From: Mytilus californianus | Taxonomy: Eukaryota | Direction: 5' to 3' | DNA length: 64,000 bases | NCBI RefSeq assembly: GCF_021869535.1 | Contig: NW_026262712.1 | Coordinates: 64,356,001-64,420,000, forward strand | Shown here: positions 23,701 to 35,700 of the stretch, piece by piece | Layout: every line of letters begins with the position of its first letter | Position numbering within the stretch: the stretch's first letter is position 1 | Made by a program: the position numbers

Positions 23701-26700
23701 TAAGCAATTATTAAGAAACTAAGGTTCTAAGGAAAAGTTTACCTTACATATGATTTTGGATATTCTTTTAAGGTCCCTTTTGTTCATATCGCTCCTAACG
23801 TTTCTACGTATTAGAACATTCCTGGCTATCAATTGTTTATGTTTGAGCGCTCCTCATGAAGTTTAATCAAGAAGAGCGCTTCGGGCGGACGAACATTATA
23901 AAGTGTGTTTTTTATTTAAAAATCAATGCATTTTAAAAACGTTGTTAATGAGTCTTACCATCGTATATTGGGATAAGTTCATCGTTATAAAGTCTTATTG
24001 TAAGGACAATCTTTTCTTCGTCTACTGCAGCATCACTTGGCACAACAACTGTGTTTGGAATACAAATGGCTATTGATGTCGGTTTCTTGAACAAGTCTTT
24101 TGATCGTCTATCCATCTCTGTGATTGAGGATCGAAGCTTGCTTTTGTATTCCTAAATGTTTTGATATAAACTATATTAAAATGTTTTGGTGTTGTAGTCA
24201 ATTAAGTAAAGCCATCTTCCGTAAAGTTAACCATTGTTCCTTTTTTTATTTTCAGATACGTGTATATAGTAAGGATTTAGAGTTCAAGATAATTGTGCGG
24301 ATATTGAGTATATATAACACCAGTGTTTTGATATAAATATCTATTCTATAAAGCATTATGTGTATTGATTGTTATAGCTAGCCTTTATAAAAAGAACTAA
24401 TAATGGAGTCAGTTAGCATGTCCAGGCGTTGTCGTAAAGGACAAAACTGAAAGGGTATGCCAAACATGAGCTGGTAGAACTTTCCGTACAACAACAAAAT
24501 AATGAATTGTCACAACCTTTTATCGAACTATATATTCTCTCAGTCGTATTACATTTGCGCCAATTTGAAAGAAAAAATCCAAAGTTGCATTTGCACCAAT
24601 GTTGAAGTACCCAGGTAAGGTTACCTTTTACCATTAAAGAGTTAATTGGTGAACAACGGGTAAAACCATTATGAATGTAGAAGCGTCTCTGTGTTCCCTT
24701 TGAAGACTATTGATACTTCAAACTTATACATATCTTTTTGCGTTACTTGCTTCAGTTTTGGTGAAGCCTTGCTGTTGGTAAACTATAAGGAAACAAAAAC
24801 AATAGCCTTGAATCATTAAATTACATTTTATTTAAAGTTTTAGTCCTGTTTTACATGTGGATGTAAATAGTTTAGATGGATAAACAAATTTTACGAACTT
24901 ACCCTGTACATATAAATTTCGTCCTGAAATTCATGTGTCAGTTATAGGGAAATATATTGTAGCAAAGAATTTTCTGCAAAAAATGAACCGAGATGAACTG
25001 GAGACATATTTTGAATGTTTATTTATTTTCTAGAACTTTGTATGCTTAAATTATATTTAAATTTTCGCATTTAAAGAAAACAAATTCATACTTTTTTTAT
25101 ATTAATTGAAATTGTCATAAACTTTAATTGCTATTTATGTTCAACGTGTTTTTTTTTTCCGAATCAATTAATTACCAGTTAAACATCAATAATAAAAAAG
25201 TAATTTATCTAAAAACACACCGATAATGAAATTAAACATACCCCGATAAGATGGCAAGCAATGGGTAAAATTTCTTCTGATTGAAAATTCTGATTCTCCC
25301 CTTTCAGTGTATCACTCTTTGCTTTAAAAACAAAGCATATTGAAATCAATACACAATAAAACTTTTTAAGGTATTATTTAAAACCAAGATAATCAACAAA
25401 GCTCCCAAATACCTTCACTTTTTGTTGGGTTGTTTTTAGGCGTGAAGGTATAGTTTGTGATTCCTTTCAGCATAACAATAAGCTTAATAGCAACGTGTAA
25501 TTGATACATGGAAATCGAACTCGAAAAGTCAAACAACAAATTTTTGGCAGATAATCTAGATCGGCATTTATTAGTACAGAACTCTTTTCAAAGGTAGGTA
25601 ATTTTGAAAGTGCATATACGTCCGTTATTTACAAAAAAAATGTGTTACTGCTAATTATTTATTTTCTTTATTACGTATGAAATGAATAGACAGAAAAATA
25701 AAAGATACATTTATTTTGATTGCATTAATAGAAAATTTTAAAAGGCAGCAAATGTCTATAATTTTCATTTCTAACACTCAATGACGCCATTTTATCTGCT
25801 ATTTCTTAATGCCTGCTTAGTTTGATTACACGCATAGATTTTGATTGGATTTATATAATTTTTTTCGAAACAAATTCAAACTCCCTCTGAGGCAAATTTG
25901 ACCTAAGAAGATATGTTGTTACTTATAGGTAATTTTGATTATAGCCTCTCGTGTCAGAGTATTTGAACTTCTTTGCATTTTGGCTTTTAAAACAGATTGT
26001 GTTTTACTTTTTAATTTGATATTTTTTTCCTTCTAAAGGTCAAAATGTCAACAGCAACTATTTGATATTTTTTTTCCTTCTAAAGGTCAAAATGTCAACA
26101 GCAACTTACCATCCGGTGATGACACAACCATTTCGCGTACAAAGTAAAACTTCCATCCGGCCGCAAATAGAGCATGTCCGGCAGAAGTTCCTTGAATGCT
26201 ATGTCTGTAATGAGGATTTCAATGAGACTGACCATGTACCTAGAACTCTGCCATGCCTTCATTGTGTTTGTGAAGTTTGCATGGAGTCTCTGAAAACACG
26301 TGATTCAGTAGTGTGTCCAGAATGCAACGAATCGCACCCGGTTCCAAATGGAGATGTGAAGAATTTTGAAAAAGATGGTTGCAGAGGATATCTTGTTAAT
26401 TATTTACAGGTACAAGCGAACGAAACTGCAATAACATGCGATGAATGCACGAATAAGCGACGCGGGACTCATCGATGTAAAGAGTGTTCACAATTTCTCT
26501 GCAATGATTGTACCGATGCCCACATGAAAACAAAAGTCACCAAGAGGCATGAAATAACCAATGTTAACGATCTCAAAGACTGCACGATAGAAGAACTGCA
26601 AGCAATTCAACGTTGTTCGGTCAAAGGTCATGAAGATCAACAGTTCCAATATTACTGTGTTTCGAACAGTTGTGATAAACCGGTCTGTGCTCTTTGCGCT

Positions 26701-32700: not shown

Positions 32701-35700
32701 TCTCCAATCTGGCAGTAAAACCCTCGTCCGTTTAGGTGTGGGGGGTGTATAAATGCGCAGCCACGTTAGCCCGTAAAAATGGCGAGATACAAACACAACA
32801 AAGAAAAAAAAATCAAGGAACACGAATCCCGTCAGAAACTGGAGATTAATGTAGATGTTTCAGAAGGATCAGCAGGTTCTGTTCTATATAGTGACACTCC
32901 CCTCGTGACGCGAGACAAAAATGCGGTGACAATATATAATATACTGTATGTTTGGAGAAATGCCTGATAAATTTTGCTGAAAGGAGAAGAGTGAAAATTA
33001 CAAAAAATATATACTTCTTCATAAACGCGTTATGTGCTATTATATATAGTCGCGTTAAATGTGTTTCTCTTTCTCATAATAAAATAACTTGAAAGTATTG
33101 AACTTTAATATTCAAATCCAAACTCAAAATAAAAGTTTTAATATTTTTATCCATATTTGAAGGTGTCGACATTTCCTTTGATTCATCTGTTGCCCATACA
33201 TCAATGGACGTATCCGGCGATGAAAAAGTGATGAAAGTGAAGACAATGAAACAGCGACATGGAATTAGCTTCAGGGAACCAGAGGCAGGACATTTCAGAA
33301 ATTATAAAGGAACGATTGCAACTAAATCTTTCAACAAGCCTGGCCTGTTTTACTGGGAAGTTGTAGTCCAGTACAAAATTTTGCGCTTAATCCGACAGAC
33401 AATGCTTTTCGAAATGGGCCTTTCGAGAATTGATTGCGTTGATAAGCGTTACACTGTGGATGCATTTCCGTACGCATGGGCAGTTAGTGCACGTGGGTGT
33501 CATATATGCGGAAAGGTATGCCTACAGACATGGCATAACGGCCAACTAATGACACATAATCCTTTGTCAAATCGCACACCAACGCCTCCAACTATGGTAG
33601 TTAGGCTTCATTATGGATTTCTTCTTGATTCAACCAAACGTCATTGGATAGTCGTCGACCTGAAAACAAAAAAAGTCATCTTCCATTTTAAAAACTTGGT
33701 TATCTCCGAGATGTCTGATCCTCTGTTCCCAGTATTTGCCATATACAACCCAGAACAGGTTCAAGCTTCGTTGGAACTTTTGTCTGGAATGAATATTACT
33801 GGAATCCCAGAAGAAGCCTTAGATGCTATAGTTATTACGTAGTTATTTCTATTGGAGTGTAGTAGATTATTACTGACTTGTTTCTGAAATGATAATTAGT
33901 AGTCTACTCAACGAATTAGAAAAGTGTGACTGATCGATTGTATTTACTTTTTCAAAATGTACATTATTTTTCATATTAAGTAGAGCAAAATTTATTTGTA
34001 AAATAGTTTTTTCATTAAAAATATCATAACAAACCGCTACTTTGAGTCTGTAACCACGATACGAAACCATCAATCATATTTTATCATCCAGTTAGATATA
34101 TGAATGAAATTAGATGTGGGGTATACTTCAGTGAGGTAATCTAACATACATCACAGTCACAACAACTACTTAACTTGTGAAAATCATATACATAATAGAA
34201 AAACAAAGGGCATGGGATATCCATCCATGACACAAAATCAGTACATTCACAGCAAAAAACACACAAAAAGAAAAGGAACAGCGCTTTTATTGCTGTTCTT
34301 CATCTCATGGCTATTTTCCCACATAAGCCGTTTTCTAAATTGAGTTTGGTCTGCTATAGTAGCTATAAACATGTAATTCCATTGCAATATCTGGTTAATA
34401 TAAAAAAAGAAGATGTGGTATGATTGCAAATGAGACAACTCTCCACAAGAGACCAAATGACACAGAAATTAACAACTATAGGTCACCGTACGGCCTTCAA
34501 CAATGAGCAAAGCCCATACCGCATAGTAAAGTCTGCTTTTGATGTAAAACTATCAGGGCCAAGAACTTAGTTAGAAAGACTTTTTTTAGTTTAGAATATA
34601 TCATGATACATGTATTCATATGTATAGAATTTCAGTTAATTAATCCATGGTCAAATTCACCATATGATTGTGCTGATCGTAGAGTATCTATGACTCTTTT
34701 TTAAAAAAATCTTGTTTTCAACGAAATAAAATAATGAAAATTGAAAGAAAAAATTATTTTAAATCGGTTCTATTATTATTGTGTTATTTACACATTACAG
34801 CTTTGTTCTTATAATATAAAAATAAGGAGATGTGGTATGATTGCCAATGAGACAACTATCCATCAAAGTTCAAATGAAGTGGATGTAAGCAATTATAGGC
34901 AACCGTACGGCCTCCAACAATGAGAAAAACCCATACCGTATAGTATGTTGTGTTGTTACACCACTTTCCAAAGAGTTTTCATGTTGTGTTGTTACACCAC
35001 TTCCCAAAGAGTTTTCACAAACATATTTAACGCCTTGCCGCATTCACAAATAGGTAAAATATTTCTACATAATTTTTGAGGGCTTTCGTAAATCTTTCAA
35101 ATTTTTAAATTGTATGGTCTCCTTGTATGAGTTACTAGAAATCATTATATACAAGGCCTCTTGAACTTATAGGGAAGTTATCGTTGAGTAAGGTTTCCGT
35201 TTTCCAAACTGATTAAAACATGCACTTAAATATACGGATATACAAATCTTTTAAGGAAAATAAGACAAACGATATTCTGAAAAATTAAAACTTTTTTCTT
35301 ATTTCAAATACAAACATACAAACTTATCATACAGAAATGTTCTTATTATCGAAAGGTCACACCAGAGACGTCCGGTGGTGCAACACGATTTATACATAAT
35401 TTATACTTTACATAAGTACAAAAATGGCAACTAACAATTACTCCAGGTAATATATGTTCCATTCGCCGATGACAAATGCACTATATGAGGGTCTGGATGG
35501 GGCTTATCAATTCTGTATTTTTTTTCATTTTTTAAGCCATTTTCTCTATTCTTTATATTTTTTACCCCTTATTCTTCTATATTTTTTTTTCTTATTTTTC
35601 TCTATCCTTTTTTTATTTACCTTATTTTTTCTATTCTGTATTTTTTTTGTTTGCCCTTTATTCTGCACTTTTTGTCCATTTTCTCTATTCTGTAAACCCC

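What the first reader, a model, noticed from the sequence alone, without database searches (positions are those of the whole stretch)
26092..33842. TRIM with Filamin plus B30.2 C-terminus, a combination outside the standard TRIM classes
Seen: RING, two B-boxes, coiled coil, a filamin repeat over two exons, and PRY/SPRY in one in-frame 764-aa model. Established for vertebrate TRIM classes: filamin occurs alone (TRIM45) or before NHL repeats (TRIM2/3/71), while B30.2 follows the RBCC directly or via COS/FN3. I know of no standard class with Filamin-B30.2. Inference: a lineage-specific domain shuffle in the expanded bivalve TRIM repertoire; whether it is already catalogued in molluscs needs a search.
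Basis: partly seen in the sequence, partly recalled or inferred. Interest (0 to 1): 0.68.

Follow-up and report, generated by a model that had tools for sequence, protein, structure and literature searches.

The report
Mussel TRIM ligase with filamin and B30.2
This is a real, intact and already annotated California-mussel gene for a TRIM-type ubiquitin ligase whose tail joins a filamin-type Ig domain to a very divergent B30.2 (PRY/SPRY) domain, an arrangement that is old and conserved in bivalves but missing from the vertebrate-based TRIM classes.

Summary
Six GT-AG exons on the + strand (26092-33842) give a 764-codon frame. Exon by exon it matches RefSeq XP_052064749.1, "TRIM71-like", of Mytilus californianus. 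RING, B-box1, B-box2 and coiled coil lie in exon 1. A filamin repeat spans exons 2-3, and two mini-exons encode a linker. Exon 6 encodes a 225-aa domain that Pfam misses entirely. Family profiles (MID1 B30.2, E 2.6e-10 and 5.7e-8) and an AlphaFold2 model (pLDDT 95.3; Foldseek TRIM65/TRIM25 PRY-SPRY, E 1.5e-10) identify it as B30.2. A 2513-nt contig holding a 764-aa orthologue shows all parts on one mRNA.

The architecture lies outside the vertebrate classes, but it is not a recent shuffle. Orthologues run from Solemya (Protobranchia) to Mya and Dreissena, and the RBCC and B30.2 trees agree. B30.2 is the best-conserved part. Gastropods probably share the layout. The databases hold these proteins under TRIM45/71/2-3-like names.

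It most likely works as a coiled-coil-dimerised RING E3 ligase that uses B30.2 to bind a conserved ligand. An RBCC-less filamin-B30.2 paralogue lies head to head with it. Verdict: a new variant of a known kind, of moderate interest.

The parts
26092..27183 (+). Exon 1 (364 codons, ends in phase 0). It holds the start codon and the whole RBCC: RING (C36-C78, nt 26197-26325), B-box1 (C116-H153, nt 26437-26550), B-box2 (C175-H213, nt 26614-26730) and the coiled coil (about residue 221-364, nt 26752-27183).
   Evidence: ORF and donor CAG|gtaaag. 100% identical to P0144 residues 1-364. Pfam zf-B_box 26.7 bits in 2 stretches, RING models below cut-off. PDB: TRIM3 1.6e-18, TRIM28 7.5e-16, TRIM56 RING 7.3e-11. 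The B-box Zn ligands are invariant in 11 of 11 orthologues. The RING ligands are present in all 10 that have the N-terminus.
28536..28716 (+). Exon 2 (181 nt, phase 0 to 1). It holds the spacer after the coiled coil and the first third of the filamin repeat.
   Evidence: Acceptor ttacag| and donor GAAG|gtaaaa. tblastn of P0144 residues 363-425. On its own it has no Pfam or PDB match.
29383..29607 (+). Exon 3 (225 nt, phase 1 to 1). It holds the last two thirds of the filamin/ABP280 Ig repeat.
   Evidence: Splice sites. Pfam Filamin 7.4e-5, 24.0 bits, profile 35-88 of 93. PDB filamin-C 3.1e-4. 52% identical to the paralogue's filamin exon, which scores 29.0 bits, above the cut-off.
30174..30233 (+). 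Exon 4 (60 nt, phase 1 to 1). Pro/Ser/Thr/Arg-rich linker.
   Evidence: Splice sites. 100% tblastn match to P0144 and P0001. Too short (<20 aa) for the family tools.
32364..32420 (+). Exon 5 (57 nt, phase 1 to 1). Linker leading into B30.2.
   Evidence: Splice sites. tblastn. Too short for the family tools. The linker is the least conserved part, at 10-36% identity.
33163..33842 (+). Exon 6 (phase 1; 225 codons plus TAG). It holds the complete divergent B30.2 (PRY/SPRY) domain.
   Evidence: Acceptor and stop. 100% identical to P0144 residues 540-764. Profiles against PDB: MID1 B30.2 at 2.6e-10 (A1) and 5.7e-8 (A2). AlphaFold2 pLDDT 95.3, pTM 0.91. Foldseek: TRIM65 and TRIM25 PRY-SPRY at 1.5e-10, prob 1.00. 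Pfam finds nothing.
33498..33521 (+). Clade-specific Cys triad C-x2-C-x3-C inside B30.2 (exon-6 residues 112, 115, 119; protein residues C651, C654, C658). The general B30.2 W-H-N motif follows it.
   Evidence: Invariant in 11 of 11 orthologues. Found in 17 of 112 family proteins, including all 15 database members of the 17-row starred clade. It lies at an insertion relative to MID1 (alignment). In the model it sits on one beta-hairpin: strand 104-112, turn, strand 117-124.
26014..26106 (+). 47-bp tandem duplication spanning the start codon. Each copy carries a polypyrimidine-AG (candidate acceptor) and an ATG.
   Evidence: TRF: 2.0 copies, 97%. Sequence.
15047..24151 (-). Head-to-head paralogue without RBCC: filamin, long mini-exon linker and B30.2, about 10 exons. 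It corresponds to XP_052064750.1 (479 aa).
   Evidence: tblastn of P0158, last exon 100%. Filamin exon 22994-22761 scores Pfam 29.0 bits. B30.2 exon 15721-15050 is 54% identical to E6. The window has no second RBCC exon at tblastn E<=0.1.

Best explanation
The locus is one functional gene of Mytilus californianus encoding a 764-aa TRIM-family RING E3 ubiquitin ligase. Its domain order is RING, B-box1, B-box2, coiled coil, filamin Ig repeat, flexible linker, B30.2.

Shown here:
- the intact frame and splice sites;
- conservation of every Zn ligand of the RING and both B-boxes;
- homology of the RBCC to solved TRIM RBCCs;
- the filamin repeat;
- the B30.2 fold of the last exon;
- presence of all parts on one spliced mRNA in a >=98% identical Mytilus sequence;
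- orthologues with the same architecture across Bivalvia.

Inferred from established knowledge of TRIM proteins (recalled, not tested here): the coiled coil forms an antiparallel homodimer; the RING recruits an E2~ubiquitin; the B-boxes help higher-order assembly; the C-terminal module folds back toward the coiled coil; and B30.2 is the substrate- or ligand-binding surface. The filamin Ig domain and the variable linker would act as a spacer or second contact.

B30.2 is the most conserved part of the protein over the whole of Bivalvia. The ligand is therefore more likely a conserved cellular (or invariant microbial) molecule than a fast-evolving pathogen protein.

The layout is ancestral to a mollusc TRIM clade. 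In the mussel lineage the gene was duplicated in inverted orientation, and the copy lost the RBCC.
For: Gene model: (764 of 767 aligned positions identical to XP_052064749.1).

One transcript: P0148, a 764-aa protein 98.7% identical end to end to P0144, lies on a 2513-nt contig. Its CDS is 2295 nt, whereas the gene spans 7751 nt here. 764-aa models exist in 5 Mytilus species. Other cDNA-sized contigs carry full-length orthologues: P0005 2947 nt, P0006 2690 nt, P0188 2627 nt.

RBCC.

Filamin. 8 of 8 first hits have Pfam Filamin at E<=0.0075. It exceeds the cut-off in P0003, P0029, P0030, P0188 and the paralogue's exon.

B30.2:
- Profile A1 matches 83 PDB sequences at E<=1, and all 60 shown carry B30.2.
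- The tight bivalve profile A2 matches 71, again all 60 shown B30.2.
- Atlas: 22 of 30 feature hits fall in the SPRY/PRY set.
- AlphaFold2 pLDDT 95.3. Foldseek: 428 matches at E<=0.001, and the 39 rows shown (ranks up to 50) are all PRY-SPRY/B30.2.

Conservation and age. The B30.2 tree has a 100* clade of 12 rows. The RBCC tree has a 99* clade of 8 rows. The careful tree places the paralogue split after the oyster split at 99/92*.
Against: - No experiment or expression data from M. californianus itself were available to me.
- In the window's own protein the Pfam RING and Filamin scores are below the curated cut-offs.
- Pfam sees no SPRY or PRY in E6, nor in any of the 8 first hits, P0144 or P0158.
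- A single-sequence PDB search of E6 gave only a spurious hit (3bfj, E 0.008).
- The residue after the last RING Zn ligand is Asn (Asp, Glu, Thr or Gln in orthologues). Many active RINGs have Arg or Lys there (recalled rule), so intrinsic ligase activity is not assured.
- I ran no heptad or coiled-coil predictor. Dimerisation is inferred from homology to the TRIM3 and TRIM28 chains.
- The AU test rejects a single exclusive clade of the filamin-bearing RBCCs (p 6e-8; 1e-5 without the long-branch row P0046). The group was named after the tree had been seen. Filamin was therefore lost or gained several times, and 'ancestral layout' is the simpler reading, not a demonstrated one.
- Filamin in the gastropod relatives rests only on my local bivalve HMM (E 1e-7 to 3e-3 in a 187-protein set). 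Pfam did not find it there at E<=0.001.
Confidence: 0.8

Rival explanations
1. Fast-evolving immune receptor. On this view the gene is a recent product of exon shuffling within the lineage-specific bivalve TRIM expansion, and its B30.2 is a pathogen-recognition surface under diversifying selection.
For: - The B30.2 subtype is abundant and modular in molluscs. There are 105 representatives at E<=1e-3.
- Among them are CARD plus B30.2 proteins in Haliotis (P0040, P0052) and another of unknown taxon (P0075). There is also a double-B30.2 TRIM in M. edulis (P0011).
- A local inverted duplication exists.
- Exons 3, 4 and 5 are all phase 1-1 and exon 6 starts in phase 1, which suits shuffling.
- Precedents: zebrafish ftr06 and ftr52, and Branchiostoma subfamily-C TRIM-MATH (passages of PMC3137616 and PMC3503706).
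Against: - 764-aa orthologues occur in five Mytilus species at 95.7-99.6% identity, and same-architecture orthologues reach back to Solemya.
- The RBCC and B30.2 trees are congruent.
- B30.2 is the most conserved region, and the Cys triad is invariant.
- The variable part is the linker, not the B30.2.
Confidence: 0.12
2. Chimeric gene model. On this view the B30.2 exon (or exons 4-6) belongs to a separate downstream transcript, and the 764-aa frame is an annotation artefact.
For: - A 2.7-kb intron and two tiny exons precede exon 6.
- RBCC-less filamin-B30.2 transcripts do exist for the neighbouring paralogue (P0162, 479 aa on a 1928-nt contig).
- Several database ORFs stop after exon 1 or exon 2 (P0147, P0151, P0164, P0167).
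Against: - P0148 carries all 764 residues on a 2513-nt contig.
- The truncated ORFs end in read-through of intron 1 or intron 2, as expected for ORF calls on genomic or unspliced contigs.
- Frame and phases fit across all five junctions.
- The same contiguous architecture appears in at least 9 other named bivalve genera.
Confidence: 0.03
3. The C-terminal domain is not B30.2 but another beta-sandwich that only resembles it. The architecture would then be filamin plus an unknown domain.
For: Pfam SPRY and PRY are silent on E6 and on 8 of 8 first hits. Single-sequence phmmer against PDB finds no B30.2. Sequence identity to solved B30.2 domains is only 13-20%.
Against: - Two independent profiles hit only B30.2 chains, covering both the PRY and SPRY halves.
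- Weak Pfam SPRY or PRY hits coincide with the matched region in relatives P0012, P0028, P0021, P0033, P0034, P0038 and P0069.
- Foldseek gives prob 1.00 and TM (target-normalised) 0.68-0.79 to TRIM65, TRIM25, TRIM21, BTN3A1 and pyrin B30.2.
- UniRef names the paralogue's orthologues B30.2/SPRY.
Confidence: 0.03

Closest known systems
TRIM45 (class X) and TRIM2/TRIM3/TRIM71 (class VII); Marin's subfamily C
   Same: RING, two B-boxes, coiled coil and then a filamin/ABP280 Ig repeat. The best solved match of exon 1 is the TRIM3 B-box2-coiled coil (1.6e-18). RefSeq and UniProt name this gene family TRIM45-like, TRIM71-like or TRIM2_3.
   Different: There are no NHL repeats anywhere: none in the exons, in P0144, or in 9 of 9 downstream + strand ORFs. 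The protein does not end at filamin as TRIM45 does; a 225-aa B30.2 follows. Affinity of the RBCC to subfamily C is not settled, because TRIM28 (subfamily E) scores nearly as well (7.5e-16). I could not fetch mollusc TRIM2/3/45/71 orthologues for a tree.
MID1/TRIM18 and MID2 (class I: RBCC, COS, FN3, B30.2)
   Same: Both B-boxes are present. An Ig-like beta-sandwich sits between the coiled coil and a C-terminal B30.2. MID1 B30.2 is the best sequence-profile match (2.6e-10 and 5.7e-8).
   Different: The intervening sandwich is filamin-type, not FN3 (Pfam Filamin, PDB filamin-C). No COS or fn3 hit appears. The B30.2 carries an insertion with a Cys triad relative to MID1.
Class IV TRIMs (TRIM25, TRIM65, TRIM21, TRIM5) and other B30.2 proteins (BTN3A1, pyrin)
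   Same: The C-terminal PRY/SPRY fold. The best structural matches are TRIM65 and TRIM25 (Foldseek 1.5e-10, TM target-normalised 0.69-0.77). As is usual for vertebrate TRIM B30.2 (PMC3137616, passages on the 'B30.2 exon'), a single last exon encodes the whole domain.
   Different: Class IV attaches B30.2 directly after the coiled coil and usually lacks B-box1 (PMC2533329, passages). Here B-box1, a filamin repeat and a linker intervene. The sequence is too divergent for Pfam SPRY or PRY.
Branchiostoma subfamily-C TRIMs with MATH domains; zebrafish ftr06 (chromodomain) and ftr52 (cyclophilin)
   Same: Documented cases in which an RBCC scaffold acquired a C-terminal domain foreign to its class (PMC3503706 and PMC3137616, passages).
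   Different: Those cases are recent and lineage-restricted. This arrangement is shared across Bivalvia and probably with gastropods.

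Membership tests
TRIM / RBCC family | N-terminal C3HC4 RING with eight Zn ligands | tested here: met
   C36, C39, C55, H57, C60, C63, C75 and C78 are present. They are conserved in the 10 of 11 aligned orthologues that have the N-terminus; P0005 starts later. PDB TRIM56 RING 7.3e-11. The Pfam RING models are below cut-off in the window copy (22.7 against 27.3) but above it in P0002, P0003 and P0006.
TRIM / RBCC family | B-box1 followed by B-box2 | tested here: met
   Pfam zf-B_box 26.7 bits against a cut-off of 24.1, in two stretches. 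All Cys/His ligands of both boxes are invariant in 11 of 11 orthologues.
TRIM / RBCC family | Coiled coil directly after B-box2 | tested here: met
   Residues 174-363 align to the TRIM3 B-box2-coiled-coil chain 8amr at 1.6e-18, and residues 35-305 to the TRIM28 RBCC. Weak TRIM_CC and PML_CC Pfam hits appear in orthologues. No heptad predictor was run.
TRIM / RBCC family | E2-dependent ubiquitin ligase activity | not testable with these tools
   This needs a biochemical assay.
Class VII (TRIM2/3/71) | Filamin repeat after the coiled coil | tested here: met
   Pfam Filamin: E3 7.4e-5 (24.0 bits, below the cut-off of 26.9). It exceeds the cut-off in orthologues or paralogues P0003 (29.0), P0029 (33.9), P0030 (34.9), P0188 (31.7) and the window paralogue's exon (29.0).
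Class VII (TRIM2/3/71) | C-terminal NHL repeats | tested here: not met
   No NHL hit in any exon translation, in P0144, in 8 first hits, or in 9 of 9 + strand ORFs of >=75 aa downstream to 51 kb.
Class X (TRIM45) | Filamin repeat as the last domain | tested here: not met
   A linker and a 225-aa B30.2 domain follow the filamin repeat.
Class IV (RBCC-B30.2) | B30.2 attached directly after the coiled coil | tested here: not met
   About 175 residues (filamin repeat plus linker, exons 2-5) lie between the coiled coil and B30.2. B-box1 is also present.
Class I (MID1-like) | COS box and FN3 between the coiled coil and B30.2 | tested here: not met
   No COS or fn3 Pfam hit in the exons or in P0144. 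The intervening domain is filamin-type.
B30.2 (PRY/SPRY) domain | PRY/SPRY beta-sandwich fold | tested here: met
   AlphaFold2 pLDDT 95.3, pTM 0.91, 13 strands. The Foldseek top hits are all PRY-SPRY, E 1.5e-10, prob 1.00.
B30.2 (PRY/SPRY) domain | Sequence homology to known B30.2 domains | tested here: met
   Family profiles against PDB: MID1 2.6e-10 over profile positions 2-190 (A1). The bivalve-only profile gives MID1 5.7e-8 and BTN3A1 7.7e-7 (A2). The single sequence does not reach them.
B30.2 (PRY/SPRY) domain | Pfam SPRY (PF00622) or PRY (PF13765) at the gathering score | tested here: not met
   No hit at E<=1 for E6. 0 of 8 first hits at E<=0.1. None in P0144 or P0158.
Marin subfamily C (by RBCC sequence) | RBCC groups with TRIM2/3/32/45/56/71 in a tree | tested here: inconclusive
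   Only PDB ranking was available: TRIM3 1.6e-18, TRIM28 7.5e-16, TRIM56 7.3e-11, PML 5.5e-7, TRIM2 3.2e-6.

The most novel reading that the evidence does not exclude
RBCC-filamin-B30.2 is an unrecognised, mollusc-wide TRIM class. Its B30.2 is a distinct subtype marked by an invariant Cys triad on one beta-hairpin, which may be a metal- or redox-sensitive site and which is tuned to a conserved ligand. In mussels an RBCC-less filamin-B30.2 paralogue, transcribed divergently from the same intergenic region, competes for that ligand and so modulates the ligase.
Probability: 0.2. Interest if true: 0.55.

Novelty: new variant of a known kind. Interest (0 to 1): 0.38.

Why it matters
TRIM classes were drawn from vertebrates, fly and worm. 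Database names for mollusc TRIMs (TRIM45-like, TRIM71-like, TRIM2/3) are inherited from the best RBCC-filamin match, and they imply a filamin or filamin-NHL tail.

Here the tail is a B30.2 that Pfam cannot see. Domain-based surveys of bivalve TRIM and B30.2 repertoires will therefore misfile this family and undercount B30.2 proteins.

A conserved orthologue group with a very well-kept B30.2 is a tractable entry point for finding what an invertebrate B30.2 binds. The RBCC-less neighbour offers a natural ligand-binding module without the ligase for comparison.

It does not open a long-standing question. It is a moderate refinement of TRIM evolution and of mollusc annotation.

Tried and rejected
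**Searches that gave nothing**
- Pfam on each exon: exon 2 and exon 6 gave nothing. Exons 4 and 5 are under the 20-residue minimum and could only be matched by tblastn.
- Single-sequence PDB searches of exon 6 (only 3bfj at 0.008, judged spurious) and of exon 2 (nothing below E 0.77).
- The search for homologous proteins with exon 1, 'longer', returned only 2 proteins, so it gave no named set of filamin-NHL TRIMs for an RBCC phylogeny.
- The profile search returned only 10 proteins, with no non-mollusc name.
- Both Atlas calls (40, 72) had no structure to search by.
- Pfam on 8 intronic or antisense ORFs and 9 downstream ORFs: no domain, apart from one sub-threshold MASE3 hit.
- Rfam on the whole window: 0 hits.

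**Literature.** Ten searches found no paper describing a filamin plus SPRY/B30.2 TRIM or a mollusc TRIM classification. The fish TRIM surveys I opened pair filamin only with TRIM2/3/45 (passages of PMC8698530 and PMC10048487).

**Scripts.** The script meant to thread P0158 exactly onto the minus strand failed. The paralogue's exon borders are therefore tblastn approximations.

**Ideas rejected**
- The shared 11-nt start of exons 3 and 6 is not conserved in the Saccostrea or Solemya proteins, so I treat it as coincidence.
- H663 as a fourth ligand of the Cys motif: it belongs to the general B30.2 H-N motif that MID1 also has, and it lies at the far end of the strand.
- An alternative NHL-encoding 3' exon.

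**Not done**
- Model coordinates could not be read, so clustering of the three Cys in space is untested.
- Complex prediction was not used, because coiled-coil dimerisation is textbook and I do not claim that the paralogue binds the ligase.

Full report
**What is in the sequence**

Stop-to-stop frames on the + strand between 26.0 and 33.9 kb contain four long coding pieces. tblastn with the public proteins found later adds two mini-exons.

Read against the DNA, the gene has six exons:

| Exon | Coordinates | Note |
|---|---|---|
| E1 | 26092-27183 | ATG, 364 codons |
| E2 | 28536-28716 | |
| E3 | 29383-29607 | |
| E4 | 30174-30233 | |
| E5 | 32364-32420 | |
| E6 | 33163-33842 | TAG at 33840-33842 |

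- Every intron is GT-AG.
- The lengths add to 2295 nt, which is 764 codons plus the stop.
- Exons 3, 4 and 5 are all phase 1-1, and exon 6 starts in phase 1.
- The window has no N and is not human.

RefSeq protein P0144 (XP_052064749.1, 'E3 ubiquitin-protein ligase TRIM71-like', Mytilus californianus) matches 764 of 767 aligned positions. E1, E4 and E6 are 100% identical. The three mismatches lie in HSP ends that overrun the exon borders. The window is thus M. californianus (lineage), and the gene is already annotated.

**How the searches were run**

I did not build or search the joined 764-aa product of the window. Exons 4 and 5 are shorter than the 20-residue minimum of the family tools, so they were only matched by tblastn. 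Full-length evidence comes from public proteins that the search tools returned.

**Domains, exon by exon**

- **E1 (RBCC).**
  - Pfam zf-B_box scores 26.7 bits (cut-off 24.1) in two stretches. Several RING models fall below their cut-offs (best 22.7 against 27.3).
  - The eight RING ligands and all ligands of B-box1 and B-box2 are present. They are conserved in the aligned orthologues: 11 of 11 for the B-boxes, and 10 of 11 for the first RING pair because P0005 starts later.
  - Against PDB sequences, E1 matches the TRIM3 B-box2-coiled coil (1.6e-18, residues 174-363), the TRIM28 RBCC (7.5e-16, residues 35-305), the TRIM56 RING (7.3e-11), PML, TRIM2, TRIM32 and TRIM23. That is 16 sequences at E<=0.01.
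- **E2.** It has no match on its own.
- **E3 (filamin).**
  - Pfam Filamin at 7.4e-5 (24.0 bits, below the 26.9 cut-off) over profile positions 35-88 of 93, and filamin-C in PDB at 3.1e-4. The repeat is indeed split between E2 and E3.
  - All 8 first hits show Pfam Filamin (E 2e-6 to 7.5e-3).
  - It exceeds the cut-off in P0003, P0029, P0030, P0188 and the window paralogue's exon.

**Is the last exon B30.2?**

Results that say no:
- Pfam gives no SPRY or PRY hit for E6 at E<=1, nor for any of the 8 first hits at E<=0.1, nor for P0144 or P0158.
- A single-sequence search of PDB finds only one spurious hit.

Results that say yes:
- An exhaustive phmmer search of E6 against 1.84 billion representatives gave 105 relatives at E<=1e-3 (45 at <=1e-10).
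- A 45-row profile (A1) hits 83 PDB sequences at E<=1. The best is MID1 B30.2 at 2.6e-10 over nearly the whole domain. All 60 rows shown are B30.2 carriers: MID2, BTN3A1/3, BTN2A1/2, TRIM21, TRIM25, TRIM11, TRIM58, stonustoxin and TRIM16L.
- To exclude contamination by distant canonical SPRY rows, I built a 12-row profile of close bivalve sequences only (A2). It still hits MID1 (5.7e-8), BTN3A1 (7.7e-7), TRIM21, TRIM5, TRIM25 and pyrin, 71 sequences at E<=1.
- The Atlas feature search puts 22 of 30 hits in the SPRY/PRY set.
- Weak Pfam SPRY or PRY hits coincide with the matched region in relatives P0012, P0028, P0021, P0033, P0034, P0038 and P0069.
- AlphaFold2 on A1 gives a confident 13-strand sandwich (mean pLDDT 95.3, pTM 0.91). 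Foldseek's top matches are TRIM65, TRIM25, 2fbe, TRIM21, TRIM7, BTN3A, pyrin and RIPLET PRY-SPRY domains (E 1.5e-10, prob 1.00, target-normalised TM 0.68-0.79, 13-20% identity).

The domain is a genuine but very divergent B30.2.

**One transcript?**

- Cluster mates of the M. coruscus protein P0001 include 764-aa models in M. galloprovincialis (two), M. trossulus, M. californianus and M. edulis.
- They also include P0148, a 764-aa protein on a 2513-nt contig. P0148 is 98.7% identical to P0144 end to end.
- A 2295-nt CDS on a 2513-nt contig cannot hold the 5.5 kb of introns seen here, so that contig is spliced mRNA.
- More distant orthologues also sit on cDNA-sized contigs: P0005 2947 nt, P0006 2690 nt, P0188 2627 nt.
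- Against this, several database ORFs stop after exon 1 or exon 2 (P0147, P0151, P0164, P0167). Their tails are read-through into intron 1 or intron 2, as expected from ORF calls on genomic or unspliced contigs.
- I had no RNA data from M. californianus itself.

**Distribution and history**

Same-architecture proteins come from these named sources (lineages):
- Solemya velum (Protobranchia)
- Saccostrea
- Mytilus
- Argopecten
- Potamilus and Sinanodonta (Unionida)
- Mya and Dreissena (Imparidentia)

I scanned 36 longer relatives beyond the first eight with Pfam. Seven show Filamin: P0012, P0013, P0019, P0029, P0030, P0072 and P0188.

A non-iterative HMM of the bivalve filamin segments also hits 11 of 11 candidates, including Haliotis and Gigantopelta proteins (E 1e-7 to 3e-3 in a 187-protein set). 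It hits 0 of 10 RBCC-B30.2 controls (Gigantopelta lineage). Pfam does not confirm filamin in those gastropod proteins, so the extension to gastropods is tentative.

Trees:
- In a B30.2 tree of 104 rows, E6 lies in a 100* clade of 12 rows (Solemya, Mya, Dreissena, Saccostrea, Mytilus), inside a 98* clade of 17 rows.
- In an RBCC tree of 40 rows, E1 lies in the matching 99* clade of 8 rows, inside a 96* clade of 10 rows. 17 of 18 filamin-bearing rows fall in one 98* clade of 28 rows, which also holds 10 rows without detectable filamin.
- The AU test rejects a single exclusive clade of filamin-bearing RBCCs (p 6e-8; 1e-5 without the long-branch row P0046). The group was named after the tree had been seen. 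Filamin was therefore lost or gained more than once.

Identity to P0144 across eight orthologues from other genera:

| Region | Identity |
|---|---|
| B30.2 | 49-61% |
| RBCC | 41-54% |
| Filamin repeat | 38-45% |
| Linker | 10-36% |

This is the pattern of an old orthologue with a conserved binding domain, not of a recent shuffle.

**The neighbour**

On the minus strand, 24151 to 15047, lies a paralogue of about ten exons. It corresponds to P0158 (XP_052064750.1, 479 aa); its last exon is 100% identical.
- It has the filamin repeat (Pfam 29.0 bits for exon 22994-22761), a long linker made of mini-exons, and the same B30.2 (54% identical).
- It has no RBCC, and the window holds only one RBCC exon.
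- A 479-aa cluster mate lies on a 1928-nt contig.
- UniRef calls the M. coruscus and M. galloprovincialis orthologues 'B30.2/SPRY domain-containing protein'.
- A careful tree puts the paralogue clade (100/100*) as sister to the Mytilus TRIM clade, inside a 99/92* group that excludes the oyster. The stem branch is much longer on the paralogue side, 0.51.
- I read this as an inverted duplication in the mussel lineage, followed by loss of the RBCC and faster change.

**A clade signature**

All 11 aligned orthologues keep C-x2-C-x3-C, followed by the general W-H-N motif. The motif occurs in 17 of 112 family proteins, including all 15 database members of the 17-row clade. It lies at an insertion relative to MID1. 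In the model it sits on one hairpin: the end of strand 104-112, the turn, and the start of strand 117-124. I could not read the coordinates, so whether the three thiols meet, bind a metal or form a disulfide is open.

**How it most likely works**

Shown here:
- an intact RBCC with all metal ligands;
- a filamin Ig repeat;
- a variable linker;
- a well-folded B30.2;
- all of these on one mRNA, and old.

Inferred from established TRIM biology (recalled):
- antiparallel coiled-coil dimerisation;
- E2~ubiquitin recruitment by the RING;
- substrate or ligand capture by B30.2 held near the centre of the coiled coil. The filamin domain and linker set its reach or add a second contact.

The high conservation of B30.2 argues for a conserved ligand.

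Caveats:
- The residue after the last RING ligand is Asn rather than the Arg or Lys common in active RINGs (sequence; the rule is recalled).
- Nothing here measures activity.

**Comparison with what is known**

From the passages I read:
- Marin 2012 (PMC3503706, Table 1 and the results text) groups filamin with or without NHL TRIMs (classes VII and X) as subfamily C, MID-type TRIMs (classes I and II) as subfamily B, and class IV as vertebrate subfamily G.
- Sardiello 2008 (PMC2533329) reports the RING-B2-CC-SPRY group as absent from fly, worm and Ciona.
- Boudinot 2011 (PMC3137616) documents new TRIM configurations arising by exon insertion, and notes RBCC-B30.2-like genes in several invertebrate phyla.
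- None of these mentions filamin followed by B30.2.
- Two fish surveys pair filamin only with TRIM2/3/45 (PMC8698530, PMC10048487).
- Ten full-text searches found no description of this combination. Supplementary tables were closed and unseen.
- I could not run an InterPro architecture query, so occurrence outside molluscs with a different B30.2 subtype is untested.

**Verdict**

- It is a new variant of a known kind.
- Interest is moderate (0.38). It corrects annotation, adds a TRIM class for molluscs, and offers a conserved invertebrate B30.2, with a natural RBCC-less counterpart, for ligand hunting.

Noticed in passing
window 15047-24151 (minus strand): Head-to-head paralogue of the TRIM gene that lacks the RBCC: filamin, a long linker of mini-exons and B30.2. 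It matches XP_052064750.1 and is 54% identical in B30.2. The two start regions are about 1.9 kb apart, which may be a shared bidirectional promoter.
   Followed up: partly
window 26014-26106: 47-bp tandem duplication (2.0 copies, 97%) that includes the start codon and a polypyrimidine-AG candidate acceptor. The upstream copy's ATG (26045) opens only a 6-codon uORF before TGA. Use of the upstream acceptor would put that uORF in the 5' leader.
   Followed up: partly
window 33498-33521 (exon 6): Invariant C-x2-C-x3-C triad on one beta-hairpin of the B30.2, specific to this orthologue clade and lying at an insertion relative to MID1. It may be a metal or redox site. Spatial clustering is untested.
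   Followed up: partly
window 29383-32420 (exons 3-5), and the paralogue's mini-exons at 22086-16304: The linker between filamin and B30.2 is built from small phase 1-1 exons (57-60 nt in the TRIM gene; tblastn matches of about 42-111 nt in the paralogue). Skipping any of them keeps the frame. RefSeq lists length isoforms of the paralogue in M. trossulus and M. galloprovincialis.
   Followed up: no
window 3270-4760 and 10969-12453 (+): Two tandem single-ORF genes of about 495 aa with 3-4 EGF domains. The first also has a C-type lectin domain by Pfam. Each has an N-terminal hydrophobic stretch.
   Followed up: partly
window 51217-52194 and 63574-63921 (+): Two exons of a protein kinase gene: Pfam Pkinase 1.8e-31 and 3e-5, covering the N- and C-terminal parts of the catalytic domain.
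   Followed up: no
relatives P0040, P0052 and P0075 (Haliotis where named), P0011 (M. edulis), and P0033, P0034, P0041 (unnamed): The same divergent B30.2 subtype occurs behind a CARD domain in abalone proteins, and twice in tandem in some proteins: RBCC plus two B30.2 domains in a 1258-aa M. edulis protein.
   Followed up: no
window 29383-29393 and 33163-33173: Exons 3 and 6 both begin with the same 11 nt just after the acceptor. The corresponding residues are not conserved in the oyster or Solemya orthologues, so this is probably coincidence.
   Followed up: partly
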